From Candidatus Latescibacterota bacterium (GTDB lineage Bacteria > Latescibacterota > UBA2968 > UBA8231): a DNA stretch of 64,000 nt. The notes below the pieces were generated by a model. The model had not been told where the DNA came from and did not search any database. It was given only the letters and a program-made list of their open reading frames with translations. Made by a program: the position numbers and the translations under genes. The stretch is taken from contig OZ242005.1 of NCBI GenBank assembly GCA_965204725.1, forward strand, positions 3,104,001 to 3,168,000, written 5' to 3'. Within the stretch, counting starts at the first letter, position 1. Every line of letters begins with the position of its first letter. Shown here one piece after another: positions 3,850 to 31,251 of this stretch.

Positions 3850-3893
3850 ACACCGATATTTACCTAATCCCCCTCACGCTTGGAGATCATCCA

Positions 3894-4847
3894 ATGAACG
3901 CCATACCCTATTCTCGCCGCACCTTTCTCAAGCTGTCGGCTGCCACGGCCGCCGGCCTTTCCATAAGTGCTGCTCCGTCCCACCGCGACATGCCCCATCG
4001 GGTCTTGGGTCGCACGGGCGAAGCCGTCTCCCTGCTCGGGTTGGGGGGCGCGCATATAGCTGACCACGGCAACATGGAGGAGAAAGAGGCCATCGCCTTG
4101 ATGCACGCGGCCATCGACGAGGGGATCAACTTCTTCGACAACGCTTGGGGGTACTCCAACGGCGAGAGCGAAGAGCGCATGGGCAAGGCACTGCGCGGCG
4201 GCTACCGCGACCGCGTATTTCTAATGACCAAGGACGCGAGCCGCCACCCCAAGCGAGCGATTGCCCACCTCGAAGAGAGCTTGCGCCGGCTGCAAACCGA
4301 CGCGATTGACCTGTGGCAGTTTCACAATATCAGACGGCCCGACGACCCAAAGCGGATATACGAGCAGGGCCTGTTGGAGGCCGCGCTCAAAGCCAAAGAG
4401 GAGGGCAAAATTCGCTACATCGGCTTCACCGGCCATACCTTGCCCGCCCTGCATGTGGAGATGATCGAGCGCGGCTTTGCTTGGGACGCCACGCAGATGC
4501 CGGTCAACGTGTTCGACCCGCACTACCTCAGCTTTGTCGAGGATGTGCTGCCGGTCGCCGTGGAAAGGAACATCGGGGTCATTGCCATGAAGACCTTGGC
4601 GGGTTCGCCCGGAGCGATTCTCGCAACGGGCGCGGCCACGGCGGCCGAGTGCCTGCGCTACGCCATGAGCTTGCCGGTAGCGACCGTATGTTCTGGAATG
4701 GATTCGCTGGAAAAATTGCGGCAGAATGCGGCCATCGCCCGGCAGTTCGCGCCCTTAGCCGACGACGAGCGGCTCGCGCTTTTGGCACGCACCCAAGAGC
4801 AGGGGATGCAGGGCGAACACGAGTCGTACAAGGCTCGCCAGCCTTGA
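3894..4847 (+). CDS. Aldo/keto reductase with Tat signal peptide
   Basis: SRRTFLK twin-arginine motif; GINFFDNAWGY, VFLMTK, SLRRLQTDAIDLWQFH, KIRYIGFTGH. Confidence 0.9.
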   Translation: MNAIPYSRRTFLKLSAATAAGLSISAAPSHRDMPHRVLGRTGEAVSLLGLGGAHIADHGNMEEKEAIALMHAAIDEGINFFDNAWGYSNGESEERMGKALRGGYRDRVFLMTKDASRHPKRAIAHLEESLRRLQTDAIDLWQFHNIRRPDDPKRIYEQGLLEAALKAKEEGKIRYIGFTGHTLPALHVEMIERGFAWDATQMPVNVFDPHYLSFVEDVLPVAVERNIGVIAMKTLAGSPGAILATGAATAAECLRYAMSLPVATVCSGMDSLEKLRQNAAIARQFAPLADDERLALLARTQEQGMQGEHESYKARQP

Positions 4848-7804
4848 GCGTCGCGCCCTTCCTATTTCTCCTTTTTGCCGCGCCCTTGTGGGGGCAAGAC
4901 CTCGGCGTCGCGCCGGCCAAACCCGTCGGCCCTCCCAAGATGGAAAGTGCGCTGTGGGAACGGCTCTCGGCGGCCAAGCCGACCCGCGCAGCAGACGGCC
5001 CACGTGCGGTCGTGGTCTTGGTGCCCGCGGCGGGCGAGGCCGCGACCATTGACACCACAGCGTTAGCCGCCCTCGGCGTCGAGATTCTAGCCCAGTCCAA
5101 GAGCCTGATGCGCGCGTCGGTGCCGACCGCATCGTTGCGGGCGGTGTCTGAGTTACCGAGTGTGGCCTTTGTCCGTCGGCCGTACCGGCCGCACGCGCAA
5201 CAAACCCTTAGCGAAGGCCTAGCGCACATTCGCGCCTTTGAAAACCACGCGGCCGGTGCCCAAGGCCAAGGGGTCAAGGTGGCGGTTATCGACGGGGGAT
5301 TTAAGGGGGCCGATAAACTGAGCGAAGACCTGCCGGTGCGTCGGTGGTATCGCGATTATACGGGCGAGGGGATATACGCCAGCACGAGCGCCCACGGCAC
5401 GGCGTGTGCCGAGGTCATCTACGACGTGGCCCCAGCAGCCGAACTCTATCTGTATAAGGTGGCGGATGAAGTGGATTTGGAGAACGCCAAAGACCGCTGC
5501 ATCCAAAACGGAGTCGCTGTCGTAAACTACTCGGCGACTTGGGTGAACACGGGCTTTGGGGACGGGCGCGGGCTCATCTGCGACATCGTAAACGACGCGG
5601 CCGACCATGGCATCCTCTGGGTCAACGCGGTCGGCAACTACGCCCAAAGGCATTACGCGGGTTTTTGGCACGACAGCGACGCCGACAATCGGCACAATTT
5701 TGCCGCGGGCGATGACGCGGTGAATTTTTTCGCGGAAGTCGGCGACGCCATCCGGGTGACCCTGACTTGGGACGATTGGCCCTCCACCACCGCGGATTAC
5801 GACCTATATCTCTACTATCAAGACGCGCTCGGCAACATCAGAGAGGTCGGCAAAAGCACGGATGTGCAGGGAAACGGCGGCGAGCCGGTGGAGTTTCTCG
5901 AATACTTTGCCGGGATAACGGGCACGTATGGCATTTCCGTGGTACGCGTTGGCGAGGCCGCGCCCAAAAGGCTGCGCGTGTGGTCTTGGCACCACGACAT
6001 TGAATATCCGGTCTCGGCGAGCAGCTTGGGGATTCCGTCGGACGCGCGCGGCGCGCTGAGCGTGGGGGCGATTCACCACGACCAATGGGACTTGGGCACG
6101 CTGGCAAGCTATAGCTCGCGCGGCCCCACCGCCGATGGCCGCATCAAGCCCGACCTCGTCGCGCCAGCGGGCGTGGCAACGGCTTCTTACGGTGCGGATG
6201 GGTTTTCGGGGACCTCGGCGGCCGCTCCCCACGTGGCTGGAGCAGCCGCCCTGCTCAAATCGGCCAATCCTTCGCTCACACGCGACGAGCTGTGGAATGC
6301 CCTCGTCGCGGCCACGGTCAATTTGGGCGCACCGGGCAAGGACGACAGCACGGGCTACGGCAAACTCGTGCTGGCGGTTTCCGTGCCGCAAATTGCCGAG
6401 GTCTCGCCGCGCCTCGTTCAGTACGGCCAAACCCTTACCATCGTCGGTGAGGGGTTCGGCGCAGACAAAGGGACGAGCCAAGTGGTCTTTTTCGGGGGCA
6501 AGCAGCCGAGCGATTCCGACTATCTCGCGTGGAGCGACGCGCAGATTCGAGTGCGCGTACCGACCGGCGCTCGCACCGGCGAGGTGCAGGTGATAACCAG
6601 AAGCGGCCGCGACCGTGCGCAGGTGGTAGTCACGTCGCCTTACATTGAGGCGGTAGCGAATCACACGCGCAGGGACGCGCCAGCCAAGACCGACGATCTC
6701 ATGGAAATTGCCGGCGATAATTTCGGCCTCGTGCGGGGCAATCGTTCCGTGCGGATTGATTCGGTCGCGGTGTCTTGGTTTGAGTCTTGGTCGAATGGGG
6801 CGATACGGTTCCGCGTTCCTCTCAACGCGCCCTCGGGCGACCTGACTGTTGAGACGCCGGAAGGCGTTAGCAATGGCGTCCGCATGGAGATCGCCAGCCC
6901 GTATCTCGCGCAACTTTCGCCGCCGCAAGTGCAGGCTGGCGAGTACCTGACCCTGACCGGCGGCAACTTTGGCTCTGAGCGCGGCGCGGGATACGTTTTG
7001 TTTTACCCCAATGTGCAAGCGGCCGCAGACGATTATGCGGTCTGGTCTAATGGCATCGTCGTCGTCCGGGTTCCGTCCCAAGCCCGCAGCGGTGCGGTGC
7101 GGGTTTTTACCGCCGATGGGGCTACGGGGGTCGCGCAAGTTGAGATTGGCAGCGAGCGGGTAGAGCCGCTGCCGAGCAGCGGAGTTTTCGGCTACAGCCC
7201 GCCCGCCGTTAGCAAAAATCCCAAGAGCGTCCGGTTCGGCTTTGAGGGGATTGAGCGCACGGTCTTGTGCCAGTTTTCGGCCAAGGAAGTAAGCGACGAC
7301 GAGGTCGTCGTTTTCCTCAACGAACAGGAGTACGCCGCGGTGCCAGCGAGCGCGGATTGGACGAAGCGGTATCTCGTCCTTGACGCAACGCAACTGCGCT
7401 CCGGGCAAAACATCATTGAGTTCCGCAACATGCTCAACCAAGGCCGGGCCGCATCCTTTGCCCGCTGGCAGTTGAAAGACGTGGCGTTGTGGAAGCCGTT
7501 TCGCGCTAAGCTGGCGGCCGGGCCGGTGCCGGAAGGCTTGGGCCATCCCTTTCCCACGCCGTTCAACTCGGAAGTGACCATTCCCTTTGCGCTGGCCGAG
7601 GCCGGTCTGGTGAGGATTTCCGTCTATAACTTGATGGGTCAGCCGGTTCGCGTGTTGGCCGATGGCTGGGTGGCGGCTGGCGCACACCGCGTGCGTTGGG
7701 ATGGTCGCACGGCGGCGGGCGCGGAGGCTGCGTCTGGGGTCTATTGGGCCGTGTTGCAAGCAGGGGAGGCCGTTCAAACTGCTAGGTTGGCGTTGATTCG
7801 CTGA
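4844..7804 (+). CDS. Secreted S8 subtilase #1 with 3 IPT/TIG domains and FlgD-Ig/T9SS-like C-terminal domain
   Basis: Triad VAVIDGG / HGTACAE / GTSAAAPH. TTG start at 4844 overlaps the AKR stop (TTGA) and begins a signal peptide ending PLWG-QD; the ORF-track start 4313 is an over-extension. Confidence 0.9.
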   Translation: MSVAPFLFLLFAAPLWGQDLGVAPAKPVGPPKMESALWERLSAAKPTRAADGPRAVVVLVPAAGEAATIDTTALAALGVEILAQSKSLMRASVPTASLRAVSELPSVAFVRRPYRPHAQQTLSEGLAHIRAFENHAAGAQGQGVKVAVIDGGFKGADKLSEDLPVRRWYRDYTGEGIYASTSAHGTACAEVIYDVAPAAELYLYKVADEVDLENAKDRCIQNGVAVVNYSATWVNTGFGDGRGLICDIVNDAADHGILWVNAVGNYAQRHYAGFWHDSDADNRHNFAAGDDAVNFFAEVGDAIRVTLTWDDWPSTTADYDLYLYYQDALGNIREVGKSTDVQGNGGEPVEFLEYFAGITGTYGISVVRVGEAAPKRLRVWSWHHDIEYPVSASSLGIPSDARGALSVGAIHHDQWDLGTLASYSSRGPTADGRIKPDLVAPAGVATASYGADGFSGTSAAAPHVAGAAALLKSANPSLTRDELWNALVAATVNLGAPGKDDSTGYGKLVLAVSVPQIAEVSPRLVQYGQTLTIVGEGFGADKGTSQVVFFGGKQPSDSDYLAWSDAQIRVRVPTGARTGEVQVITRSGRDRAQVVVTSPYIEAVANHTRRDAPAKTDDLMEIAGDNFGLVRGNRSVRIDSVAVSWFESWSNGAIRFRVPLNAPSGDLTVETPEGVSNGVRMEIASPYLAQLSPPQVQAGEYLTLTGGNFGSERGAGYVLFYPNVQAAADDYAVWSNGIVVVRVPSQARSGAVRVFTADGATGVAQVEIGSERVEPLPSSGVFGYSPPAVSKNPKSVRFGFEGIERTVLCQFSAKEVSDDEVVVFLNEQEYAAVPASADWTKRYLVLDATQLRSGQNIIEFRNMLNQGRAASFARWQLKDVALWKPFRAKLAAGPVPEGLGHPFPTPFNSEVTIPFALAEAGLVRISVYNLMGQPVRVLADGWVAAGAHRVRWDGRTAAGAEAASGVYWAVLQAGEAVQTARLALIR

Positions 7805-21419: not shown

Positions 21420-21429
21420 GGAACTTTTG

Positions 21430-22440
21430 ATGATACAAGAAGCCATAAAAGACCTAATCGCCGGAGCGGACTTGGGCCGCGCTAGGACGCGGGCGGCCAT
21501 GGACCAGATCATGAGCGGCCAAGCCACAGACGCCCAGATTGGCGCGTTTCTCGTCGCCCTGCGGATCAAAGGCGAGACTGTGGACGAGATCGCCGGTTGC
21601 GCCGAAGTCATGCGCGAGAAAGCCACGCCCATAGCGACAGCGCGCCCCGATCTGATCGACACCTGCGGCACCGGGGGCGATGACTCGGGGACCTTCAACA
21701 TCTCTACGGCGGTGGCCTTTGTCGCCTGCGGCGCTGGCCTAGCGGTGGCCAAGCACGGCAACCGCTCCATATCGAGCCACTGCGGCTCGGCGGACGTGCT
21801 GGCCGCGCTCGGGGTCAACGTCGAAGCCTCGCCGGAAAAAGTTGGCGAGTGCCTCGACGAAGTCGGCATCGGCTTCCTCTTCGCGGTGGCCTTGCACGGG
21901 GCGATGAAACACGCCATCGGCCCGCGCCGGGAGCTGGCCACCCGCACGGTTTTTAACGTCTTGGGGCCGCTGACCAATCCGGCTGGGGCCAAAAGGCAAT
22001 TGATCGGAGTGTACGACAGTGCGCTGACCGAGGCACTCGCCGGGGTGCTCGGCCAGTTGGGATCGGAGCGGGCCTTGGTGGTACACGGCTCGGACGGGCT
22101 AGACGAGATTACCCTGACCGGGCCGACACAGGTCAGCGAGCTGAGAGATGGGTCGGTGAGTACTCGTCAGATCGACCCCAGAGATTTCGGCTTGCAGCTT
22201 GCCCCAGCCGAGGCACTCCAAGGCGGCGATGCGGCTTACAACGCACGCATCCTGCGCGAGGTACTCGATGGCCGGGAAGGGCCGCGGCGCGACGTGGTGC
22301 TCATCAACGCGGCGACCGCAATAGCCGTTGGCGGGCGGGCTGAGGATACGACCGCCGGTCTTGAATTGGCCCGGGCCTCTATCGACTCGGGCCGAGCACG
22401 CCAAGCCTTGGATCGGCTGGTCGAGGTGAGCAACGCCTAG
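21430..22440 (+). CDS. trpD: Anthranilate phosphoribosyltransferase
   Basis: DTCGTGGD, FNIST, KHGNRS, GSAD, DGLDE. Confidence 0.96.
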   Translation: MIQEAIKDLIAGADLGRARTRAAMDQIMSGQATDAQIGAFLVALRIKGETVDEIAGCAEVMREKATPIATARPDLIDTCGTGGDDSGTFNISTAVAFVACGAGLAVAKHGNRSISSHCGSADVLAALGVNVEASPEKVGECLDEVGIGFLFAVALHGAMKHAIGPRRELATRTVFNVLGPLTNPAGAKRQLIGVYDSALTEALAGVLGQLGSERALVVHGSDGLDEITLTGPTQVSELRDGSVSTRQIDPRDFGLQLAPAEALQGGDAAYNARILREVLDGREGPRRDVVLINAATAIAVGGRAEDTTAGLELARASIDSGRARQALDRLVEVSNA

Positions 22441-22461
22441 CACATCACCCCACGAATCCTA

Positions 22462-23241
22462 ATGACCGATATTCTCAAGGAAATAGCCGCGTACAAGCGC
22501 GAGTTCGTGGCCGACCGCCAGCGTCAGCGCAGTTTGGCCGAGGTGCGCGCCCACGCCCGCGACACGCCCGCGCCGGCCGATTTTCGCGGTGCGTTGGCGG
22601 CCGATGGGATCGCCCTGATCGCCGAGATGAAAAAAGCCTCGCCGTCCAAGGGCATCATCCGCGCCGACTTCGACCCGGAGCAGATCGCCGATGCCTATGC
22701 GGCCAACGGCGCGCGCTGCCTTTCGGTTTTGACGGACGAGGCGTACTTTCAGGGGTGCGATGCTTATGTGCAGATGGCGAAAGAGGTTGCGGGCTTGCCG
22801 GTGTTGCGCAAGGACTTTACCATCGGCGAATACCAGCTCTACGAAGCCCGCGTCATCGGGGCCGATGCCGTTTTGCTGATCGTGGCCCTGATGGACTCCA
22901 GCCAGCTCGACGACTGCCTCGGCTTGGCCGGCGAGTTGGAATTGGCCGCGCTAGTCGAAGTTCACGATGAGGCGGAATTAGCGCGGGCCAAAGCGGCTGG
23001 GGCCGGGCTCGTCGGCGTCAACAACCGCGATCTGCGGACCTTTGAGACCACCTTGGAGACGACCTTCGCGCTTTTGGACCAGATGCCGGAGGGGGCGGTC
23101 GTCGTCAGCGAGAGCGGCATTGAAGGCCGCGGTCATGTCGAGCGGCTCGCCGCGGCCGGGGTCGATGCGATTTTGGTCGGCGAATCCCTGATGCGCGAAG
23201 CCGATATCGGGGCCAAAGTGAGGGAGCTATTGGGCGCGTGA
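22462..23241 (+). CDS. trpC: Indole-3-glycerol phosphate synthase
   Basis: IAEMKKASPSKG, LRKDF, GVNNRDL, SESGI. Confidence 0.96.
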   Translation: MTDILKEIAAYKREFVADRQRQRSLAEVRAHARDTPAPADFRGALAADGIALIAEMKKASPSKGIIRADFDPEQIADAYAANGARCLSVLTDEAYFQGCDAYVQMAKEVAGLPVLRKDFTIGEYQLYEARVIGADAVLLIVALMDSSQLDDCLGLAGELELAALVEVHDEAELARAKAAGAGLVGVNNRDLRTFETTLETTFALLDQMPEGAVVVSESGIEGRGHVERLAAAGVDAILVGESLMREADIGAKVRELLGA

Positions 23242-24221
23242 AAAAACGAGTGTTTTCGGGCATTCAGCCCTCGGGTCACATCCACATCGGCAACTACATC
23301 GGAGCTGTCCGCAACTGGCTGGTCAACCTACCAGACCGCGACAACATCTTCTGCGTGGTCGATCAGCACGCCATCACCTTGCCCTACGACCCGGAGGCTT
23401 TGCGCCGCGGTACGCGCGAGGCCGTGGCCCTGTACATCGCCTGCGGACTCGATCCGCAACAGTGCCGCCTTTTCGTGCAGTCGCACATCCGCGAGCACAC
23501 GGAGTTGGCTTGGCTTTTGACCTGCATCACGCCCATGGGCTGGCTGGAGCGGATGACCCAGTTCAAGGATCGGGTGGGGGCGCGGAGCGAGCGCGTCGGC
23601 ACCGGGCTGTTTGTCTATCCGACGTTGATGGCCGCCGATATTTTGCTCTACCAAGCGCACGAGGTGCCCGTTGGCGACGACCAAAAACAGCACGTGGAAC
23701 TGACGCGCGACTTGGCCGAGCGCTTCAATCGCCAGTTCGGCGAGGTCTTCACCGTGCCCGAGCCGGTCATTCCCGCGGTTGGGGCGCGGATTATGGGGCT
23801 CGACGATCCGACCGCGAAAATGTCTAAGTCGGCCGAGGGTCGGTTCCACAGCATCGGCTTGCTCGACAGCCCGGACGCGGTCCGCAAGGCCATCATGCGG
23901 GCGGTGACGGATTCGCAACGGGACATTGTCTTCGACCCGCAGCGCCCTGGGCTGCACAACCTCCTGACCATCTACCAAGCGTTGACCGGCCTAGAAAACG
24001 CCGCGATTGAGGCGCGTTTTGCTGGCAAGGGATACGGCGACTTAAAGAAGGAATTGGCCGAAGTGATCATCGCCGAGATCGAGCCGATTCAGGCTCGCTA
24101 TCGGGCGTTGCGGGCGGATCCCGCCTATATCGACGGGGTGCTCGCCGAGAGCGTCGAGAAGCTGCGCCCAATCGTGGACGCAACCATGGACGCCGTCCGC
24201 CGGGCGATGGGGCACCGGTGA
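23238..24221 (+). CDS. trpS: Tryptophanyl-tRNA synthetase
   Basis: SGIQPSG, HIGN, YPTLMAADILLY, VPVGDDQKQH, KMSKS. Confidence 0.96.
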   Translation: MKKRVFSGIQPSGHIHIGNYIGAVRNWLVNLPDRDNIFCVVDQHAITLPYDPEALRRGTREAVALYIACGLDPQQCRLFVQSHIREHTELAWLLTCITPMGWLERMTQFKDRVGARSERVGTGLFVYPTLMAADILLYQAHEVPVGDDQKQHVELTRDLAERFNRQFGEVFTVPEPVIPAVGARIMGLDDPTAKMSKSAEGRFHSIGLLDSPDAVRKAIMRAVTDSQRDIVFDPQRPGLHNLLTIYQALTGLENAAIEARFAGKGYGDLKKELAEVIIAEIEPIQARYRALRADPAYIDGVLAESVEKLRPIVDATMDAVRRAMGHR

Positions 24222-24231
24222 GAGAATAGCT

Positions 24232-24513
24232 ATGGACCTGAGTGACTGGCGCGACCGCATAGACAACATCGACCGGCAACTGATCGATCTGCTCAACGAG
24301 CGCATGCGCTGTGCGCAAGCGATCGGGCGGCTCAAAAAGGCCGCGGGCAAACCAATACGCGATCCCGAGCGCGAGCTCGTCGTGATCGCCAAGGTCAAAG
24401 CCTACAACCAAGGGCTGATCAAGGACGAAGCCCTAGAGGAGCTCTACTGGCTGCTCATCAAACGGACCACCGACTTCGAGCGCGAGGAGCCTTCGTCTTC
24501 TTCCGGCGAGTAG
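24232..24513 (+). CDS. Chorismate mutase (AroQ class)
   Basis: R.RIDNIDRQLIDLLNERM...IG..K...IRDPERE. Confidence 0.9.
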   Translation: MDLSDWRDRIDNIDRQLIDLLNERMRCAQAIGRLKKAAGKPIRDPERELVVIAKVKAYNQGLIKDEALEELYWLLIKRTTDFEREEPSSSSGE

Positions 24514-25592
24514 TCATCGTCGGCGTGGGCTTGATTGGTGGCTCCATGGGCTTGGCGCTCCGGCGCACCGGCTTTGGCGGGCAGCTCGTGGGCGTCAGCC
24601 GCCCGCCAACCATCGCCCGCGCCCTCGAACTGGGCGCGATCGACGAAGGATGGGGCTACGACGAGTTGGAACGCGCCCTCAAGGGAGCCGATCTGGTCTT
24701 TATCTGCACCCCGATTAAGCGGATTCTCGCGCTGATTGCGGAAGTGGGTCGGCTCGCCGAGCCGAAGACCCTCGTCACCGACGTAGGGAGCACCAAACGG
24801 CGCATCGTCGCAGCGGCCCAAGCCCAGTTTAGCGACTCGGTGTACTTTGTCGGCGGCCACCCCATGGCCGGCTCAGAAAAGGCGGGCGTGGCCGCGGCCG
24901 ATCCGTTCCTCTTCCAGAATGCGATCTACATTTTGGTCCCCAACCAGCAGGTGCCCGCCGACCGCTACCAAGCATTGACCGCTCTCTTGCGCCAAGTCGG
25001 AGCGCGGGTGATGGAACTAGACGCCGAAGCGCACGACCGGGCGGTCGCCGCTATCAGCCACCTGCCGCAGATGATGGCGACCTCGCTGGTGAGCATGGTC
25101 GGCCGGCTCAACGCCGAGCGCGATCACTTCCTGCCGCTGGCCGCTGGGGGCTTCCGCGACCTGACGCGGATTGCCGCCAGTCCGTTCGCGCCGGTATGGG
25201 AGGATATTTGCGCGACCAATGCCGACCAGATTCGGGCGATGATCGACCGCTACATGGCCGCGCTGGCCGAGGTGCGGGAGCGGCTGGAGGGAGCGGAGCT
25301 AAAGGCGGATTTCGATTTTGCCAACGAGGTGCGGGGCGCGATCCCGAGGGATTCAAAGGGGTTTATCCACGCGCTGTACGAGATTTTGGTGCTCGCCGAA
25401 GACCGGCCGGGCGTCATCGCCGAGATCGGGCAGGCGCTGGGGGACCAAGGGATCAACATCAACGATATTGAGGTGATGAAGGTGCGCGAGGGCGAGGGGG
25501 GGACGCTGCGGCTGGGGTTTGATAGTGCGGAGAGCGCGGAAAACGCCCTGGGAATTTTGGCGCGGCTCGGGTATGTGGCGCGAAGGCCCTAA
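24495..25592 (+). CDS. tyrA: Prephenate/arogenate dehydrogenase with C-terminal ACT domain; start uncertain (first canonical start is GTG 24525)
   Basis: FRRVVIVGVGLIGGS Rossmann motif, DVGSTK, GGHPMAGSE, HD..VA.ISHLP, DLTRIA, ACT-like EDRPGVIAEI. Confidence 0.9.
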   Translation, partial: VFFRRVVIVGVGLIGGSMGLALRRTGFGGQLVGVSRPPTIARALELGAIDEGWGYDELERALKGADLVFICTPIKRILALIAEVGRLAEPKTLVTDVGSTKRRIVAAAQAQFSDSVYFVGGHPMAGSEKAGVAAADPFLFQNAIYILVPNQQVPADRYQALTALLRQVGARVMELDAEAHDRAVAAISHLPQMMATSLVSMVGRLNAERDHFLPLAAGGFRDLTRIAASPFAPVWEDICATNADQIRAMIDRYMAALAEVRERLEGAELKADFDFANEVRGAIPRDSKGFIHALYEILVLAEDRPGVIAEIGQALGDQGININDIEVMKVREGEGGTLRLGFDSAESAENALGILARLGYVARRP

Positions 25593-25595
25593 GCT

Positions 25596-26819
25596 ATGGA
25601 AGAAATCGTACATCCAGTCAAGAAAATTGCCGGGCAGGTCTCAGTGCCCGGAGAGCGGGTGCTGGCCGAGCGGGCGCTCGTGTTGGCCGCGCTGAGCGAA
25701 GGAGACAGCGTCGTCAGCAACGCGCCCGTTGCCGTTGGCCGGGTGGTCGCTTTGTTGCGCACCCTCGGCGTTGACATTGCCGAGCGCGCCGGTGACTATG
25801 CGGTGCGCGGGGTTGGGTTGCGGGGGTTTCAGCGTACCGCGGCCCCACTCGACCTAGGGGGGTTGGGCGACACCGTGCTGTTGTTGCTGCCCTTGCTCGC
25901 CGGACAAACGTTTCGCTCGCGGGTGAAGTTAGGAGCGGAAGCCGAGCGGTGTCAGCCCTTGCTCGCTGTCCTAACCCAGCTCGGGTTCGCCGTAGAACAG
26001 GAGGGCGCGGACACCATAGTAACCGGGGGGCAGCCGGCCAAAGGGTGCGTTCTTGCCGAGGCACCACCGACCGACGCCTTGGCGCTGGGCGCGATGGTCG
26101 GTGCGCTCTTGGCCGAGGGGACGACCGCCCTGAAAGCCGGTCGCCGCGTGGAGCGCTGGTTGCACGAGCGCGGGGTGGTGGTCGACCGACGCAACCGGCT
26201 GTCGGTAGCAGGGGGGCAGGCGTTGCAGGGCGTTGACGTGGCGGTCCCGGGACAACTCGCGTTGGCTTATCCGCTCATCGGGGCCGCGCTGTGCCGCAAG
26301 GGGTCGCAGCTAACCATCCAGCGCGTGGCTATTCGCCCTAAGCAGCGGGCGTTCTTGGATTTGCTGCGGCAGGTTGGGGCGCAGGTCGCCGCGCAAGAGC
26401 GCGAGGAGGGTGCGTGGGACTTGCACGTGAGTGCCAGCCCCTTAAAGGGTACGCGCGTGGCCGGGCGGCGGGCGGCCAAGGTCGCCGACCAGATCGCGCT
26501 GTTAGCGGTCTTGACGACCCAAGCGACCGGAACGACGGTCATCCGCGACATCGAAGACGTGCCGCACGTAGAGCATGTGTGCGCCGCGCTGCGCTCGCTC
26601 GATGCGCGGGTCGGCCAGTTTCCAGAAGGGCTCGTCATCAAAGGAGGCTTCCCGCTCCAAGGCGGCCAGCTCGATGGTCGGGGCGACCCTAGCTTAGTCA
26701 TGGCTTTTGCCGTGGCTGGGCTGTTGGCCGAAGGGGCGCTAACCATCCACGGCAGCGAGTGCCTAGCGCCTATCTGGCCCGATTTTTTTGAGACCGTACA
26801 CCTTATTCAAGGAGATTGA
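25596..26819 (+). CDS. AroA (EPSP synthase)-like protein with degenerate active site
   Basis: Full-length AroA-like layout (GQVSVPG..RALVLAAL.EG; MAFAVAGL; WPDFF) in the tyrA-aroE position, but the conserved catalytic motifs are replaced. Confidence 0.75.
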   Translation: MEEIVHPVKKIAGQVSVPGERVLAERALVLAALSEGDSVVSNAPVAVGRVVALLRTLGVDIAERAGDYAVRGVGLRGFQRTAAPLDLGGLGDTVLLLLPLLAGQTFRSRVKLGAEAERCQPLLAVLTQLGFAVEQEGADTIVTGGQPAKGCVLAEAPPTDALALGAMVGALLAEGTTALKAGRRVERWLHERGVVVDRRNRLSVAGGQALQGVDVAVPGQLALAYPLIGAALCRKGSQLTIQRVAIRPKQRAFLDLLRQVGAQVAAQEREEGAWDLHVSASPLKGTRVAGRRAAKVADQIALLAVLTTQATGTTVIRDIEDVPHVEHVCAALRSLDARVGQFPEGLVIKGGFPLQGGQLDGRGDPSLVMAFAVAGLLAEGALTIHGSECLAPIWPDFFETVHLIQGD

Positions 26820-26821
26820 AG

Positions 26822-26962
26822 ATGCGAGGACTTTTTCGGCTTTTTGTGTGCGCGGCCATGCTGTTGGGCGGCGGCCTACTCGTCATCCGCCTGCTCTACG
26901 GCGTGTCGTGGCGCGAATCCTTAGAGATTGCCAACTGCTTCGTCGAGGAATTGCTCGGGTGA
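26822..26962 (+). CDS. Small single-TM membrane protein (46 aa), below the ORF-track cutoff
   Basis: AAGGAGA RBS, ATG 26822, MRGLFRLFVCAAMLLGGGLLVIRLLYGVSWRESLEIANCFVEELLG; its TGA overlaps the aroE GTG (GTGA). Confidence 0.65.
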   Translation: MRGLFRLFVCAAMLLGGGLLVIRLLYGVSWRESLEIANCFVEELLG

Positions 26963-27804
26963 TTTCCGCGACGACGCGGGTGCTCGGCGTCATGGGCGAC
27001 CCGGTCGCGCATTCGGCGTCGCCGGCCATGCACAACGCCGCGCTTGGGGCGCTGAATCTCGACTATGTGTACGCGGCGTTCCGGGTTGCGGCCGCCGCCT
27101 TGCCCCAAGCCCTCGCCGGCATGCGCGCCCTCGGCATGGTTGGGCTGAACGTAACCGTGCCGCACAAGCAGGCCGTCATGGCGCATCTCGACGAGGTTGC
27201 GGCCGAGGCCCAGAGCATTGGTGCGGTCAATACCATTGCCAACCGCGATGGCCGGCTCGTGGGGTACAACACCGACGCCTTTGGGATTGTGCAAAGCCTC
27301 AAGGCCGTGGGCGGCTTGGACCGGCTGCCGCCCACGGTCGCGCTGCTCGGTGCGGGCGGCGCGGCTCGGGCCGTGCTCTACGCGCTGCTGGCGCGGGAGG
27401 AGGTGGAGGAGGTGCTGCTGCTCAACCGCACCGTAGAAAAGGCCGCCGCCCTCGCTGGCGACCTCGACCGCGCCGGCAAGGTCCGGGTCGGGTCGCTTGC
27501 TGAGACTGGGCCAATCGCGGACGCAGGTTTGCTCATCAACGCCACGGCCTTGGGGATGCACCCCCGCACGGCCGCTTCGCCGCTGGCGGATCCATCGTGC
27601 CTACATGCGCAAATGCTGGTCGCCGACATTGTGTACAACCCCTTGGAAACCGCGCTCATGCGGCAGGCCGCGGCCGCGGGTGCGTCGGCCATCAACGGCT
27701 TAGGGATGCTCGCTTGGCAGGGGGTGCGCTCGTTTGAGATCTGGACCGGGGTCGAGCCGCCGGTCGAGGCGATGATGGCCGCTTTAGAGGAGTTTAGCGC
27801 GTAG
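26959..27804 (+). CDS. aroE: Shikimate dehydrogenase
   Basis: GDPVAHSASP.MHN, NVTVPHK, GAVNT, NTD, GAGGAARA, NRT. Confidence 0.95.
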   Translation: MISATTRVLGVMGDPVAHSASPAMHNAALGALNLDYVYAAFRVAAAALPQALAGMRALGMVGLNVTVPHKQAVMAHLDEVAAEAQSIGAVNTIANRDGRLVGYNTDAFGIVQSLKAVGGLDRLPPTVALLGAGGAARAVLYALLAREEVEEVLLLNRTVEKAAALAGDLDRAGKVRVGSLAETGPIADAGLLINATALGMHPRTAASPLADPSCLHAQMLVADIVYNPLETALMRQAAAAGASAINGLGMLAWQGVRSFEIWTGVEPPVEAMMAALEEFSA

Positions 27805-27806
27805 CC

Positions 27807-29525
27807 ATGACCATAACCGAAACATTAGAAGCGCGTATCAGCGCGGCACTAGCCCGAGCGGGCGCACCGGCCGGTTCCCCGGCCCTCGTCGGCCCGGCCA
27901 CCCGCCCGGAATTTGGCGACTACCAAGCCAACGGCGTGATGGCCGCGGCCCAGAAGCTAAAGACCAATCCCCGCACGCTCGCCGCTCGGGTCGTGGCGGA
28001 ACTGGAGCTAGCGGATATGGCTGCGACCGTAGAGGTCGCCGGCCCGGGCTTTATCAATGTCCAACTCAAGGGCGAATGGCTGGCCGAGCAGCTCGGGACC
28101 GCGCTGGCCGACCCGCGGCTGGGCGTACCCAAGGCCGCGCCGCAAAAGGTCGTAATCGATTACTCGCATCCCAACTTGGCCAAGGAGATGCACATCGGCC
28201 ACCTGCGGAGCACGGTCATCGGCGACGCCATCGCCCGCGTCCTCAAATTCTCCGGTCACGAAGTGGTGCGCCACAATCACGTGGGCGACTGGGGGACGCA
28301 GTTTGGAATGCTCATCGCCCACTTGGACCAACTCGCGGACCCGGCCACGGAATTGGCCGATCTAGAAGTATTTTACCAGTCGGCGCGTCAGCGCTTTGAC
28401 CGGGACACGGCCTTTGCCGACCGGTCGCGGGAATGCGTGGTCAAGCTGCAACGCGGCGACCCGCACGTGCTGCGGATGTGGCAGCAGTTCATCGACGAGT
28501 CGCTCGCCCACGGCCAGCGCATATACGCCGCGCTCGGGGTCCAGCTCAAGCCCGAAGACGTGCGCGGCGAGAGCGCGTACAACGACGAATTGCCCCGCGT
28601 GGTCGAGGATTTGCGGGCCAAGGGCTTGCTGGTCGAGTCCAAGGGGGCGCAGTGCGTCTTCTTGGAGGAATTCAAAAACAAGGACGGCCAGATCACGCCG
28701 GTGATCGTGCAGAAGTCGGATGGTGGCTACCTCTATGCGACGAGCGACCTCGCGGCCGTGCGCTATCGGGCCGGTGCGCTCGCGGCCGACCGCATTCTCT
28801 ACATCGTGGATGCGCGCCAGTCGTTTCACTTGCAGCAGGTCTTTGCGGTGGCGCGGGCGGCCGGGTACGCGCCCGAGACGACCGCCTTGGAGCACCACGA
28901 GTTTGGTTCGATTTTAGGCGTGGATAACCGGCCGTTTAAGACGCGGGCTGGCGGCACGGTCAAACTGATGGACGTGTTGGAGGAGAGCGTGGAGCGGGCC
29001 TTTGCCCAAGTGAGCGCGAAAAACCCGGCACTGGACGAAAACGAGCGGCGGCAAATTGCCCGCGTGATTGGCATTGGCAGCGTCAAGTACATGGAGCTGT
29101 CGTTCAACCGCACCTCAGACTACGTGTTCGACTGGGACAAAATGCTGGCCCTCGACGGCAACACCGCGCCCTACCTGCTCTACTCCTACGCCCGCATCAA
29201 GAGCCTGTTTCGCCGCGCTGCGGTGGATGAAGACGCGCTCTCCGGCGCGATTGCCCTTGGCGAACGGGCTGAAAACGCGCTCGCGATCAAGCTGTTGCAG
29301 TTTCCCGAGGTGGTCGCGGCCGTGGCCCGCCAGTGCTATCCGCACGTGTTCTGCACCTATCTCTACGAGCTGTCCGACGCCTTTATGAAGTTCTACGAGC
29401 AGTGCCCGGTCCTGCGGGCGGGCGAGCCTACGCGCACGAGTCGGCTGCTGCTGGCGCTGCTGACCGCGCGCACCCTGCGCCAAGGGCTCGACCTACTCGG
29501 CATCGAGACCCTCGAGCGCATGTGA
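27807..29525 (+). CDS. argS: Arginyl-tRNA synthetase
   Basis: FGDYQ, PNLAKEMHIGHLRST, GDWGTQFG, FKTR, GNTAPY, FYEQCPVL. Confidence 0.96.
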   Translation: MTITETLEARISAALARAGAPAGSPALVGPATRPEFGDYQANGVMAAAQKLKTNPRTLAARVVAELELADMAATVEVAGPGFINVQLKGEWLAEQLGTALADPRLGVPKAAPQKVVIDYSHPNLAKEMHIGHLRSTVIGDAIARVLKFSGHEVVRHNHVGDWGTQFGMLIAHLDQLADPATELADLEVFYQSARQRFDRDTAFADRSRECVVKLQRGDPHVLRMWQQFIDESLAHGQRIYAALGVQLKPEDVRGESAYNDELPRVVEDLRAKGLLVESKGAQCVFLEEFKNKDGQITPVIVQKSDGGYLYATSDLAAVRYRAGALAADRILYIVDARQSFHLQQVFAVARAAGYAPETTALEHHEFGSILGVDNRPFKTRAGGTVKLMDVLEESVERAFAQVSAKNPALDENERRQIARVIGIGSVKYMELSFNRTSDYVFDWDKMLALDGNTAPYLLYSYARIKSLFRRAAVDEDALSGAIALGERAENALAIKLLQFPEVVAAVARQCYPHVFCTYLYELSDAFMKFYEQCPVLRAGEPTRTSRLLLALLTARTLRQGLDLLGIETLERM

Positions 29526-30061
29526 TGATAAAAGGGCCGGTGTTTCTGACGGGTTTTATGGGCGTGGGCAAGACCCGGGTCGGGCGCATTCTGGCGCGGC
29601 AGCTCGGGCGTTGCTTCTTGGACACCGACCTCATGGTCGAACAGTGCGCTGGCAAGTCCATCGCGGAGATTTTCGCCGCCGAAGGCGAGGCGCGTTTCCG
29701 CCAGCTAGAACACGCCTGCGTCCTCAAAACCTGCCAACGCCCGGATGCCGTAGTGGCCTTGGGCGGTGGGGCAATCACCCGCGCCGACAACATCGCGGCC
29801 GTGCGTTGCGCCGGCGTCTTGGTCTGTATCAAGGCCGATGTGGATACGATTTTTGCCCGCGTCCGGCGTCGCTCCAACCGACCCCTGCTCGCCGGATTAG
29901 CGCCGCCAGCGCAACGCGCCAAGATAAAGTCCCTGCTCCGCGCCCGCGCTCCCTACTACGACCAAGCCCACATTGCGCTGTACACCACGCAAGCGCAGAC
30001 GCCTGAGGACACGGCCGGACAAATCCGCGCCTTGCTGGAGAGCTACAGCCGTCCAAAATAA
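29525..30061 (+). CDS. aroK: Shikimate kinase
   Basis: GFMGVGKT P-loop, DTD, GEARFRQLE, GGG, RPLL; ATG overlaps the argS stop. Confidence 0.95.
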   Translation: MIKGPVFLTGFMGVGKTRVGRILARQLGRCFLDTDLMVEQCAGKSIAEIFAAEGEARFRQLEHACVLKTCQRPDAVVALGGGAITRADNIAAVRCAGVLVCIKADVDTIFARVRRRSNRPLLAGLAPPAQRAKIKSLLRARAPYYDQAHIALYTTQAQTPEDTAGQIRALLESYSRPK

Positions 30062-30064
30062 CTT

Positions 30065-30134
30065 GAAAGCATGGAATGTTCATCGACGCGCCGATTCGTC
30101 ATTCCCGCGAACGCGGGAATCCAGTCTTGATGAT
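30065..30134. repeat. ATTCCC-N8-GGGAAT palindromic repeat with flanks shared with 12916-12999
   Basis: GAAAGCATGGAATGTT...GTCATTCCCGCGAACGCGGGAATCCAGTCTTGA. Confidence 0.8.
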
Positions 30135-30147
30135 GTAGGATTGCTAT

Positions 30148-31251
30148 ATGCAAAGAATTGACTTGGACCTCCCAGGGGCTACATACCCCATTTTCGTCGG
30201 CCACGACATCCTCGGGACACTGGGGACGCGCTGCCGCGACTTGGCCTTGGGTCGGCACGTCGCGCTGGTGACCGACGAGGTCGTGGCGGCGCGCTACCTG
30301 CAACCTGTGGCCGCCAGCTTGCGCGCCGCTGAGTTCGAGGTGTTGGAGATTGTCTATGCCGGGGGCGAGGAGGCCAAGAACTTGCGCGGGGCCGAGGGCA
30401 TTTTCGCGCAGATGATCGAGGCCGAGTTGGACCGCGGCACTTGGGTTGTGGCCCTCGGCGGGGGCGTAGTCGGCGACATGGCGGGCTTTGTGGCCTCCAC
30501 CTATTTGCGCGGCGTACCCTACGTGCAGGTGCCGACGACCATCGTCGCGCAGGTGGATTCGAGCATTGGCGGCAAGACCGGGGTCAACCACGCGCTGGGC
30601 AAAAACCTGATCGGCACCTTTCACCAGCCGCGCTTGGTCTTGGCCGACACCAACGCGCTGCGCTCGCTGCCGCGGCGGGAGCGGGTCGCCGGCATGGCCG
30701 AGGTGGTCAAACACGGGCTGATCCGCGACGCCGCGCTCTTTGCCTTTTTGGAGGAGCACTTAGAAGAAGTAGTGGATATGGCCCTCGCGCCGGAGACCTT
30801 GGACTGGCTCATCGGCCGCAACGTCGAGATCAAGGCCGAAGTAGTCGCCATCGACGAGAAGGAGCAGGGCTTGCGGGCCATCCTCAATTACGGGCACACC
30901 CTTGGGCACGCGATTGAGGCCGCCACCGACTACGGCCGCTACCGGCACGGGGAGGCGGTGATTTTGGGCTTGATCGCGGCCGGCGAAATCGCCTGCCGCG
31001 CGGGGTTTTGGCCCGAAGCGGAAAGGCAGCGGCAGGACGCGCTGCTGGCGCGGTTGGGGGTGCCTAGGGGATTGGCCGAGGTGGAGACCGAGCGGATTTT
31101 GGCTTGTGCCAAGGCCGACAAAAAGCGAGTCGATGAGCGGCTACGGTTCGTGCTGGGACGACGGATTGGAAAGGTGGAGATCGCCGAGGGAGTAACCGAT
31201 GCGACTGTGTGCGCGGCTATTGAATATGTGCAGCGCTTTTGCGGGGCATGA
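30148..31251 (+). CDS. aroB: 3-dehydroquinate synthase
   Basis: GGGVVGD, PTT..AQVDSSIGGKTGVN, KNLIG, LNYGHTLGHAIE, HGEAV. Confidence 0.96.
   Translation: MQRIDLDLPGATYPIFVGHDILGTLGTRCRDLALGRHVALVTDEVVAARYLQPVAASLRAAEFEVLEIVYAGGEEAKNLRGAEGIFAQMIEAELDRGTWVVALGGGVVGDMAGFVASTYLRGVPYVQVPTTIVAQVDSSIGGKTGVNHALGKNLIGTFHQPRLVLADTNALRSLPRRERVAGMAEVVKHGLIRDAALFAFLEEHLEEVVDMALAPETLDWLIGRNVEIKAEVVAIDEKEQGLRAILNYGHTLGHAIEAATDYGRYRHGEAVILGLIAAGEIACRAGFWPEAERQRQDALLARLGVPRGLAEVETERILACAKADKKRVDERLRFVLGRRIGKVEIAEGVTDATVCAAIEYVQRFCGA

What the first reader, a model, noticed from the sequence alone, without database searches (positions are those of the whole stretch)
25596..26819. Full-length AroA homolog with nearly every catalytic motif replaced: candidate pseudoenzyme or neofunctionalised EPSPS fold
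The ORF is intact and in the normal operon position, but compared with the AroA consensus the motifs change as follows: PGDKSISHR to PGERVLAER, GNSGT..R to GGLGD..L, SAQVKS to TDALAL, ELRVKESDR to DIEDVPHVEH, DHRIAM to DPSLVM. The Lys, Gln, Glu, His and Arg residues that bind S3P and PEP are mostly lost, while structural residues remain and there are no stops. That suggests selection for a non-canonical role such as regulator, scaffold or different ligand. No other aroA is in the window.
Basis: partly seen in the sequence, partly recalled or inferred. Interest (0 to 1): 0.75.

Follow-up and report, generated by a model that had tools for sequence, protein, structure and literature searches.

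The report
Dead AroA kept in aromatic operon
This gene is a full-length copy of the shikimate-pathway enzyme EPSP synthase that has lost almost all its catalytic residues yet has been kept intact under purifying selection across a whole bacterial class, while a second, normal aroA elsewhere in the genome presumably does the chemistry.

Summary
Window 25596..26819 (+) is an intact 407-aa EPSP-synthase-fold ORF (PF00275 E 1.6e-37). It scores below the aroA equivalog cut-off (150.7 vs 287.25 bits) and keeps only 2-3 of 20 E. coli AroA substrate-binding or catalytic positions.

It is not the genome's aroA. A canonical, class-I-like aroA (426.8 bits) lies about 2.9 Mb away. In other classes of the same phylum, the slot next to aroE holds a canonical class-II aroA. 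So this gene looks like the displaced ancestral operon copy.

It is not decaying:
- ORFs are intact in all 24 same-genus genomes that hold it.
- ML omega is 0.239; omega = 1 is worse by 312 lnL. Neighbouring enzymes give 0.07-0.13.
- AlphaFold pLDDT is 96.8.

In two sister lineages one whole globular domain was excised in frame, apparently twice independently. What remains is a ~220-aa single-domain protein with omega about 0.15-0.17 and pLDDT 96.2.

The replacement residues are not conserved between sub-clades, which argues against a new active site.

Best reading: a pseudoenzyme whose selected part is the N-strand plus C-terminal domain. Its partner or ligand is unknown. One complex prediction gave no verdict.

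The parts
25596..26819 (+). aroA' : full-length, catalytically degenerate class-II-type EPSP synthase homologue (407 aa)
   Evidence: ORF. PF00275 E 1.6e-37. TIGR01356 150.7 bits against a cut-off of 287.25. 2-3 of 20 catalytic positions kept. AF2 pLDDT 96.8. Foldseek top hits are class-II EPSPS.
25596..25655 (+). N-terminal strand segment (residues 1-20). It belongs structurally to the same globular domain as the C-terminal half, and it is retained in the half-length relatives.
   Evidence: Alignment A3. Model strands E2-5 and E11-16.
25656..26210 (+). Globular domain formed by residues about 21-205. It carries the former S3P-side motifs (GNSGT to GLGDT, SAQVKS to TDALAL). It is less conserved and is dispensable in sister lineages.
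   Evidence: Omega 0.275. Mean pairwise identity is 0.335 here against 0.470 for the other domain; in canonical AroAs the figures are 0.461 and 0.434. Deleted in genus g2 and family f3.
26211..26816 (+). C-terminal half (residues about 206-407). It is the better conserved module. The former PEP-side motifs are lost (LRVKESDR to IEDVPHVEH, GDHR to GDPS).
   Evidence: Omega 0.232. R251 and R317 are invariant and R258, D318 and R333 nearly invariant in 59 degenerate sequences. The only part kept in the half-length forms.
24525..25592 (+). tyrA (prephenate dehydrogenase with C-terminal ACT domain), the upstream neighbour. Its stop lies 3 nt before the aroA' start.
   Evidence: PF02153, PF20463 and PF01842. 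Sequence read. Same gene order in 34 of 34 and 20 of 20 fetched loci.
26822..26962 (+). Conserved 46-aa ORF with a hydrophobic N-terminal helix and the motif SWxESxxIAxxFxxDLL. An AAGGAG lies upstream, and the ORF starts 2 nt after the aroA' stop.
   Evidence: 63 distinct sequences; M1, I22, Y26, W30 and E32 invariant. Also found next to canonical slot aroA in 2 of 4 loci from other classes. No Pfam family.
26980..27804 (+). aroE (shikimate dehydrogenase), the downstream neighbour
   Evidence: PF08501, PF18317 and PF01488. Orthologues align from this start.
21427..31251 (+). The surrounding aromatic operon: trpD, trpC, trpS, chorismate mutase, tyrA, aroA', small ORF, aroE, argS, aroK, aroB
   Evidence: The same order is seen in 20 of 20 loci from other genera of the family. 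No promoter-like site, and terminator-like sites at chance level (8 found, 8.9 expected).

Best explanation
aroA' is the ancestral operon-encoded class-II EPSP synthase of this lineage. It stopped being an enzyme after a second, class-I-like aroA elsewhere in the chromosome took over EPSP synthesis. It was not lost. It has been kept as a folded, expressed protein, a pseudoenzyme, across at least four GTDB families of one class.

The part under strongest selection is the globular domain built from the N-terminal strand plus the C-terminal half. The other domain, and with it the inter-domain cleft that is the EPSPS active site, can be removed without loss of constraint.

Shown:
- loss of the catalytic residues;
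- a canonical paralogue in the genome;
- conserved synteny;
- purifying selection;
- clean excision of one domain in sister lineages;
- a confidently predicted fold.

Inferred:
- It has no EPSPS activity.
- Its retained role is non-catalytic. Most likely it binds a protein partner or acts as a structural or regulatory subunit in aromatic amino-acid biosynthesis, with which it is co-transcribed and translationally coupled.

The partner or ligand is not identified.
For: (1) Catalysis lost. TIGR01356 scores 150.7 bits against the 287.25 cut-off. Only 2-3 of 20 E. coli substrate or catalytic positions are kept, with K340 and E341 deleted. Among 130 full-length representatives, 104 keep 14 or more of 20, while 22, including this family's cousins, keep 5 or fewer.

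(2) Redundancy. A canonical aroA lies at C1:242000-243226 (426.8 bits). It is 45% identical to E. coli AroA and groups with it (SH-aLRT 100). A canonical aroA over the cut-off is found in 39 of 41 close genomes and in 122 of 132 genomes of the class, 33 of 34 among high-quality ones. One of the ten misses, G157, has a class-I-like ORF with canonical motifs.

(3) Orthology to a real enzyme. In four genomes from other classes of the phylum, the gene next to aroE is a canonical class-II aroA (413-417 bits). It is the only aroA-level hit in those genomes. A tree that holds the degenerate clade and these slot enzymes together is not rejected (p-AU 0.875).

(4) Selection.
- ORFs are intact in 24 of 24 same-genus genomes that hold the gene.
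- NG86 median dN/dS is 0.255 over 136 pairs, against 0.087-0.134 for six real enzymes. dS is about 0.35 and similar to the neighbours.
- ML omega is 0.239. Fixing omega at 1 costs 312 lnL units.

(5) Fold kept. AF2 pLDDT is 96.8. The top Foldseek hits are class-II EPSPS.

(6) Domain module.
- Genus g2 of family f2 and family f3 carry 214-227-aa proteins made of the N-terminal strand joined directly to the C-terminal half.
- The junction sequences differ, and f2 has full-length genera. The g2 halves are 61-68% identical to those full-length f2 forms but only 36-37% to the f3 halves. This points to two independent excisions.
- The half form has omega 0.147-0.166, like aroE at 0.154. It folds as one compact domain (pLDDT 96.2) that matches one EPSPS domain (TMq 0.80, rmsd 2.4-2.7 A).
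- In full-length degenerate proteins that domain is more conserved than the other (0.470 vs 0.335). Canonical AroAs show no such asymmetry (0.434 vs 0.461).
Against: - No activity was measured. Loss of EPSPS activity is inferred from sequence alone.
- No partner or ligand was found.
- The residues most conserved in the degenerate clade (R251, R258, R317/D318, R333) are often also present in canonical class-II AroAs. They may be structural, so there is no positive signature of a new binding site.
- Omega is 2-3 times higher than in the neighbouring enzymes. Part of the constraint could be selection against misfolding of an obligatorily co-translated protein rather than a positive function.
- Ten of 132 class genomes showed no canonical aroA at E <= 1e-70. 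Most are 58-90% complete, but G088 (95%) and G156 (90%) remain unexplained.
- No RNA or protein expression data were available.
Confidence: 0.6

Rival explanations
1. Neofunctionalised enzyme or ligand-binding protein. The EPSPS cleft has been rebuilt to bind or convert a different, probably anionic, metabolite, for example a pathway intermediate used as a regulatory signal.
For: Within the genus the replacement motifs are themselves well conserved: PGER, GLGDTALLLL, TDALALGA, PHVEH and GDP. R27 and the D313 equivalent are kept in the window protein. Several arginines are invariant in the C-terminal domain. Omega is well below 1 in both halves.
Against: The replacements are not conserved between 50%-identity clusters of the degenerate clade. 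K22 becomes R, L, A, V, P, F, T or G, and D313 becomes E, P, G, H, S, R, N or A. The whole second domain, and so the cleft, was deleted in two lineages that stay under equal or stronger constraint. The conserved arginines also occur in canonical AroAs.
Confidence: 0.17
2. A functionless relic in slow reductive decay. It persists only because it sits inside a tightly coupled essential operon, so its translation is needed to deliver ribosomes to the small ORF and aroE, and because misfolding variants are purged.
For: It evolves 2-3 times faster than its neighbours. Reading frames are tightly coupled: the tyrA stop lies 3 nt before its ATG, and its own stop 2 nt before the next ATG. Loss of half the gene in some lineages looks like stepwise reduction. 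No function or partner was found.
Against: Omega of 0.24, and 0.15-0.17 in the half form, is far from neutral. The reading frame is uninterrupted at all 34, 20 and 13 degenerate slot-copy loci I read through, from four families whose TyrA proteins are only about 56% identical. In the two wider scans the few in-match stops I checked are early terminal stops, but one 94-aa fragment with a TAG (G020:C283) and several short or contig-split copies (G077, G081, G117, G152) were not examined. Both deletions are exact in-frame excisions that preserve a complete structural domain, which random decay would rarely produce twice. dS is not depressed, so there is no hidden nucleotide-level element. Bacterial deletion bias should have removed a useless 1.2-kb gene; this last point is established knowledge, not tested here.
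Confidence: 0.15
3. It is still a working EPSP synthase that uses unconventional residues, for example a highly glyphosate-insensitive form.
For: The fold is complete and the operon position is canonical. JGI pipelines name family members 3-phosphoshikimate 1-carboxyvinyltransferase.
Against: 17-18 of 20 binding or catalytic positions are changed or deleted, including every PEP-phosphate or carboxylate ligand except possibly one. The score is below the curated equivalog cut-off. A canonical aroA co-occurs in nearly all genomes. Half-length orthologues cannot form the active site. NCBI records call these proteins hypothetical.
Confidence: 0.03

Closest known systems
Class II EPSP synthase (AroA, EC 2.5.1.19), e.g. 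the solved Bacillus halodurans (3RMT), Streptococcus pneumoniae (1RF4) and other class-II structures
   Same: The same two-domain fold built from six beta-alpha-beta-alpha-beta-beta units. These are the best sequence hits (E 2.5e-46 to 4e-38) and the best structural hits (TMq up to 0.88). The gene occupies the same operon position as the canonical class-II aroA of related classes.
   Different: It scores below the equivalog cut-off. It lacks K22, R124, S169-Q171, K340, E341, R344, H385, R386 and K411. It is accompanied by a separate canonical aroA. One domain is dispensable in relatives.
Bifunctional prephenate dehydrogenase / EPSP synthase (TyrA-AroA fusion, NCBIfam NF011381 / PRK14806)
   Same: This is the best NCBIfam hit, through its AroA half (170.6 bits). 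The tyrA-then-aroA gene order is the same.
   Different: The proteins are not fused here. tyrA and aroA' are separate ORFs. The long open frames seen in some relatives lie in a different frame from tyrA. The score is far below the 902-bit cut-off, and the AroA part here is catalytically degenerate.
Pseudoenzyme paralogues that survive as non-catalytic subunits, e.g. Rcl1 (the inactive relative of RNA 3'-phosphate cyclase RtcA, whose large domain shares the EPSPS/MurA repeat fold) and the trypanosomatid 'prozymes'. These are recalled from the literature, not from a call.
   Same: An enzyme homologue that has lost its catalytic residues, keeps its fold and is under purifying selection.
   Different: In those cases a binding partner and role are known. 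Here none has been identified. Here the dead copy is the original orthologue in its operon, displaced by a distantly related isofunctional enzyme, rather than a recent duplicate of the active enzyme.
MurA (UDP-GlcNAc enolpyruvyl transferase)
   Same: The same superfamily and fold (PF00275).
   Different: TIGR01072 scores 46.4 bits against a cut-off of 392.7. The genome has its own murA at C1:2984086-2985297.

Membership tests
EPSP synthase, AroA equivalog (TIGR01356, EC 2.5.1.19) | PF00275 domain and the two-domain EPSPS fold | tested here: met
   PF00275 E 1.6e-37 over 6-400. AF2 pLDDT 96.8. Foldseek top hits are EPSPS, E about 1e-37.
EPSP synthase, AroA equivalog (TIGR01356, EC 2.5.1.19) | Score at or above the curated equivalog cut-off (287.25 bits) | tested here: not met
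   150.7 bits; 148.7 bits in the six-frame genome search.
EPSP synthase, AroA equivalog (TIGR01356, EC 2.5.1.19) | S3P and PEP binding and catalytic residues (E. coli K22, R27, R124, S169-Q171, D313, K340, E341, R344, H385, R386, K411 and others; the list is recalled) | tested here: not met
   2-3 of 20 positions kept (R27, D313, possibly G96); K340 and E341 deleted. Canonical class-II representatives keep 16 of 20.
EPSP synthase, AroA equivalog (TIGR01356, EC 2.5.1.19) | Catalyses S3P + PEP to EPSP; complements an aroA mutant | not testable with these tools
   Needs an enzyme assay or complementation.
Orthologue of the phylum's operon-encoded class-II aroA | Same genomic slot, directly upstream of (small ORF and) aroE in the aromatic operon | tested here: met
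   The order tyrA, aroA', aroE is seen in 34 of 34 loci and 20 of 20 loci. In other classes a canonical aroA lies next to aroE in 4 of 4 loci, the small ORF is detected in 2 of 4, and tyrA is adjacent in 1 of 4.
Orthologue of the phylum's operon-encoded class-II aroA | Groups with those enzymes in a tree | tested here: inconclusive
   The degenerate clade is one group (SH-aLRT 98) on long branches, and its placement is unstable. The constrained topology is not rejected and even scores higher (p-AU 0.875).
Pseudoenzyme (inactive homologue retained by selection) | Loss of catalytic residues together with purifying selection and an intact fold | tested here: met
   (residues). (omega 0.15-0.26, omega = 1 rejected). 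(fold).
Pseudoenzyme (inactive homologue retained by selection) | A demonstrated non-catalytic function or partner | tested here: inconclusive
Needs pull-downs or genetics.
TyrA-AroA bifunctional protein (NF011381) | Single polypeptide with both domains; score of 902 bits or more | tested here: not met
   170.6 bits, AroA half only. Separate ORFs. Apparent long frames in relatives are out of frame with tyrA.
MurA (TIGR01072) | Equivalog cut-off of 392.7 bits | tested here: not met
   46.4 bits.

The most novel reading that the evidence does not exclude
The N-strand plus C-terminal globular domain of EPSP synthase has become a free-standing, non-catalytic module with its own selected role in aromatic amino-acid biosynthesis. 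It could, for instance, be a regulatory or assembly subunit for an operon enzyme such as TyrA, or a partner of the conserved 46-aa membrane micro-protein encoded 2 nt downstream. That would make it the first pseudoenzyme family described in the enolpyruvyl-transferase superfamily. The family would be caught at three stages in one phylum: active two-domain enzyme, dead two-domain protein, and dead single-domain protein, the last reached by two independent exact domain excisions.
Probability: 0.35. Interest if true: 0.75.

Novelty: new variant of a known kind. Interest (0 to 1): 0.6.

Why it matters
**A natural series from enzyme to pseudoenzyme.** A core-metabolism enzyme was displaced by a distantly related isofunctional enzyme. 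The displaced copy was then retained in situ as a non-enzyme, and in some lineages trimmed to a single structural domain. Series like this are rare, and they help in studying how pseudoenzymes arise and which parts of a fold carry non-catalytic functions.

**An annotation trap.** Some pipelines name these proteins 3-phosphoshikimate 1-carboxyvinyltransferase. Pathway reconstructions, and sequence-based predictions of glyphosate sensitivity that key on EPSPS motifs, would miscount or misclassify them. Similar degenerate AroA homologues appear in records labelled Zixibacteria and Granulicella, so the issue may be wider.

**A concrete pair of candidates.** The window protein and its roughly 220-aa relatives can be used directly to ask what an EPSPS domain can do besides catalysis.

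Tried and rejected
**Complex prediction.** TyrA, the 46-aa ORF product and AroA' were folded together from the window's own proteins with alignments A4-A6. The result was no verdict (ipSAE 0.00 and 0.01; controls were not run). It is not evidence either way.

**TyrA-AroA' fusions.** Open frames of 656-837 aa flagged turned out to be alternative-frame overlap with tyrA, not fusions.

**'Stops inside' for G022, G009 and G004**. These are simply stop codons 3-5 codons earlier than in the window protein, not disruptions.

**Expression.** No RNA run holding the locus was listed.

**Literature.** Five full-text searches found no paper on a catalytically dead EPSPS or AroA. I saw only listings and abstracts. 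For the GapMind 2026 paper (PMC13759103) I read two passages of tables listing diverged AroA entries, which do not bear on this family.

**New active site.** I looked for residues conserved in the degenerate clade but not in canonical AroA. The invariant arginines are common in canonical class-II enzymes too, and the 'TR[VI]AG' motif is already present in canonical slot enzymes of the phylum. No convincing new site emerged. The HVEH motif of the window's genus is absent in the next sub-clade.

**Internal regulatory DNA.** There were no promoter-like sites, and terminator-like sites were at chance level.

**Other look-ups.**
- The earlier-findings look-up returned nothing.
- The Protein Atlas look-alikes of the half form were only other short PF00275 clusters, possibly fragments.
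- Pfam gave nothing significant for the 46-aa ORF (a holin family at E 0.046, below its cut-off).

Full report
**1. The observation**

Window 25596..26819 (+) is an intact ORF with an ATG start, 407 codons and no internal stop. It matches Pfam PF00275 (EPSP synthase) end to end (residues 6-400, E 1.6e-37). Its best solved relatives are class-II EPSP synthases: 3rmt at E 2.5e-46, then 3roi/3tr1 and 1rf4.

It fails NCBI's aroA equivalog model, TIGR01356, with 150.7 bits against a cut-off of 287.25.

I aligned it with E. coli K-12 AroA (fetched) and with the genome's own canonical AroA. A second, larger alignment used 130 full-length representatives.

- Of 20 E. coli positions that bind S3P or PEP or act in catalysis, only R27 and D313 are kept, plus G96 in one of the two alignments. 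The list of positions is recalled from the literature; the E. coli letters were verified.
- K22 is R. S169, S170 and Q171 are T, D and A. K340 and E341 fall in a deletion. R344 is H, H385 is P, R386 is S and K411 is P.
- R124 aligns with Q and with E. In one search many close relatives have R there, so that one position is ambiguous.
- Among the 130 representatives, 104 keep 14 or more of 20 (typically 16), 22 keep 5 or fewer, and 4 are intermediate.

**2. Context in the window and the genome**

The gene sits in a long co-directional aromatic operon: trpD, trpC, trpS, chorismate mutase, tyrA (with an ACT domain), aroA', a 46-aa ORF, aroE, argS, aroK and aroB.

- The tyrA stop lies 3 nt before the aroA' ATG.
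- The aroA' stop lies 2 nt before the ATG of the 46-aa ORF, which has an AAGGAG upstream.
- A simple scan finds no promoter-like site, and terminator-like sites at chance level (8 found, 8.9 expected).

The window has no other aroA, but the genome does. A six-frame search of the 5.43-Mb assembly finds three PF00275 genes:

| Gene | Location | Score |
|---|---|---|
| Canonical aroA | C1:242000-243226 | 426.8 bits TIGR01356 |
| murA | C1:2984086-2985297 | 289.2 bits PF00275 |
| This gene | the window | 148.7 bits TIGR01356 |

The canonical copy is 45% identical to E. coli AroA. It keeps 17 of 20 positions and groups with E. coli AroA in a tree (SH-aLRT 100). It is therefore a class-I-like enzyme, only about 25% identical to aroA'.

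**3. Distribution and origin**

The protein has 207 database relatives at E <= 1e-10, and the best 120 were listed. Most are 403-424 aa and 57-94% identical. Where a source gives a taxon, they are labelled as uncultured Gemmatimonadetes, Latescibacteria or Handelsmanbacteria.

Own genome plus 40 relatives:
- A canonical aroA over the cut-off is present in 39 of 41. The two misses are 58% and 77% complete.
- A full-length sub-threshold copy is present in 24 of 25 genomes of the genus and in G040.
- All 12 genomes of a second family (f2, genus g2) and 2 of 3 genomes of a third (f3) have only a half-length match to the C-terminal part of the model.

All 132 genomes held for the class:
- 122 have a canonical aroA over the cut-off, including 33 of 34 high-quality genomes.
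- One of the ten misses, G157, has a class-I-like ORF with canonical motifs that scores lower because of an insert.
- Most of the others are 58-90% complete. G088 (95%) and G156 (90%) remain unexplained.

Synteny is constant. The order tyrA, aroA', aroE holds in 34 of 34 loci. The whole eleven-gene order holds in 20 of 20 loci from other genera of the family.

In four genomes from other classes of the same phylum, the gene directly upstream of aroE is a canonical class-II aroA (413-417 bits). It is the only aroA-level hit in each of those genomes. In these four loci the small ORF was detected in 2, and tyrA was adjacent in 1.

A fifth genome, G055, from yet another family, has a degenerate slot copy plus a class-I-like aroA elsewhere.

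The degenerate proteins form one clade on long branches (SH-aLRT 98). Forcing them together with the phylum's canonical slot enzymes is not rejected and even gives a better likelihood (p-AU 0.875).

The simplest history is as follows. The ancestral operon aroA was class II and active. A class-I-like aroA was then gained elsewhere in the genome. After that, the operon copy lost its catalytic residues.

**4. It is not decaying**

All 24 same-genus ORFs are intact. The 'internal stops' flagged for three genomes are just terminal stops 3-5 codons earlier.

dN/dS among 17 genomes of the near clade (NG86 medians are over 136 pairs; ML is the GY+F3X4 codon model):

| Gene | NG86 median | ML omega |
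|---|---|---|
| aroA' | 0.255 | 0.239 |
| tyrA | 0.087 | 0.073 |
| trpS | 0.099 | not run |
| canonical aroA | 0.113 | 0.127 |
| aroE | 0.120 | 0.086 |
| argS | 0.121 | not run |
| trpC | 0.134 | not run |

- dS is about 0.35, which is unsaturated and similar to the neighbours.
- Fixing omega at 1 for aroA' lowers lnL from -7877.8 to -8190.0.
- Both halves of the protein are constrained: 0.275 for residues 21-205 and 0.232 for residues 206-407.

The gene therefore evolves 2-3 times faster than real enzymes but is far from neutral.

AlphaFold2, run with a 141-sequence alignment, gives pLDDT 96.8 and pTM 0.92. Foldseek's best hits are class-II EPSPS. The highest TM-score is to an unliganded structure (3roi_B, TMq 0.88), and several apo forms score higher than their liganded counterparts. 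This concerns a model only.

**5. The half-length relatives**

In genus g2 of family f2 and in family f3, the slot gene encodes 214-227 aa. Pfam sees only positions 230-410 of the 417-position model.

- Full-length forms exist in other genera of f2 (L090-L096) and in f4 (L097-L100). Alignment with them shows that the short proteins consist of the N-terminal strand of about 14-17 residues joined directly to the C-terminal half. In g2 the join is at the second copy of the repeated 'VPGD' motif (A3 columns 17-245 missing).
- In EPSPS, the N-terminal strand and the C-terminal half together form one of the two globular domains. This is established structural knowledge, recalled. The deletion therefore removes the other domain exactly and leaves a complete one.
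- The junction sequences differ between g2 and f3. The g2 proteins are 61-68% identical to the full-length f2 forms but only 36-37% to the f3 halves. This points to two independent excisions, assuming the GTDB families are monophyletic.
- The half form is under purifying selection as strong as that on aroE: NG86 median 0.166 and sum ratio 0.147, against aroE 0.154, tyrA 0.098 and argS 0.100 (11 genomes, 55 pairs).
- It is predicted as a compact single domain (pLDDT 96.2, pTM 0.92). It superposes on one EPSPS domain (TMq 0.80, rmsd 2.4-2.7 A over about 198 columns).
- Among 16 non-redundant full-length degenerate proteins, that domain is more conserved than the other (mean pairwise identity 0.470 vs 0.335). 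In 35 canonical class-II enzymes the two are equal (0.434 vs 0.461).

**6. What it most likely does**

The EPSPS active site lies in the cleft between the two domains and needs residues from both. With 17-18 of 20 positions gone, a canonical aroA present, and orthologues that lack one domain altogether, EPSP synthesis by this protein is very unlikely.

A rebuilt active site is also unlikely. The replacement residues are conserved within the genus but not between 50%-identity clusters of the clade. K22 becomes R, L, A, V, P, F, T or G, and D313 is often lost. The most conserved residues of the clade are glycines plus R251, R258, R317/D318 and R333, and these are frequent in canonical enzymes too.

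What selection preserves is a folded domain. I therefore read the protein as a pseudoenzyme with a protein-level role: binding, scaffolding or regulation. That role is tied to the aromatic operon, with which the gene is co-transcribed and translationally coupled. The role itself is inferred, not shown.

One prediction of a TyrA, 46-aa protein and AroA' complex gave no verdict and counts neither way.

The main rivals are a new ligand-binding or catalytic role (0.17), a relic maintained by operon architecture and selection against misfolding (0.15), and a still-active unconventional EPSPS (0.03).

**7. Comparison with what is known, and novelty**

- By fold and descent this is a class-II EPSPS. 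By the defining features of the enzyme family (equivalog score, catalytic residues) it is not a member.
- It is not a TyrA-AroA fusion, and it is not MurA.
- It fits the general category of pseudoenzymes. Recalled parallels are Rcl1 versus RtcA, in the same repeat fold, and the trypanosomatid prozymes. Here, however, the dead copy is the original orthologue, displaced by a distant isofunctional enzyme, and it has twice been reduced to one domain.
- Five full-text searches (listings and abstracts seen) found nothing on a catalytically dead AroA. Supplements could not be read.
- Public records disagree on the name. NCBI records say 'hypothetical protein', while JGI records say '3-phosphoshikimate 1-carboxyvinyltransferase'.

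I rate it a new variant of a known kind, with interest 0.6. The evolutionary picture is clear and somewhat surprising, but the function remains open.

Noticed in passing
window 26822..26962 (+): A conserved 46-aa ORF lies between aroA' and aroE. It has a hydrophobic N-terminal helix followed by SWxESxxIAxxFxxDLL. It was found at the same place in 67 fetched loci (63 distinct sequences; M1, I22, Y26, W30 and E32 invariant). It also sits next to canonical slot aroA in two loci of other classes. It has no Pfam family and is probably an unannotated membrane micro-protein.
   Followed up: partly
window 23238..24221 and 27807..29525 (+): Two aminoacyl-tRNA synthetase genes are embedded in the aromatic operon: trpS between trpC and chorismate mutase, and argS between aroE and aroK. 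The order is conserved in 20 of 20 loci of the family. In some genera the argS at this position is only about 33-36% identical to the window's, against 62-70% in others, which suggests two argS types.
   Followed up: no
P0146, P0177, P0183, P0263, P0220, P0242, P0255: Other class-II-like AroA homologues with partly or mostly lost catalytic positions (4-11 of 20 kept) occur outside this clade. Where a source names a taxon, the labels are Zixibacteria (P0146 cluster) and Granulicella sp. (P0220). Dead or dying AroA copies may be more widespread.
   Followed up: no
G010:C1:3035589-3036815, G014:C123:66453-67673, G013:C1:4697808-4698587, G002:C1:496618-497421: Some genomes of the genus hold a further weak EPSP-fold paralogue (47-57 bits to TIGR01356, ORFs of 372-456 aa). 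Several have a second MurA-like gene, for example G157:C61 with a GNKNAA motif.
   Followed up: no
L013 (G007) 5338..6653: One relative has a roughly 1.46-kb insertion between the small ORF and aroE, where the other near-clade loci have a 154-160-nt spacing measured from the aroA' stop. Its content was not examined.
   Followed up: no
window 1..4000: G+C falls to 0.48-0.50 here, against about 0.62-0.67 over most of the window. This could be a foreign or RNA-gene segment. It was not examined.
   Followed up: no
G077:C1:3372942-3373310; G081:C510:125-781; G117 and G152 split copies: There are a few further short or split slot copies (185-280-aa open frames). Some are at contig ends. They may be additional truncations or assembly breaks.
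   Followed up: no
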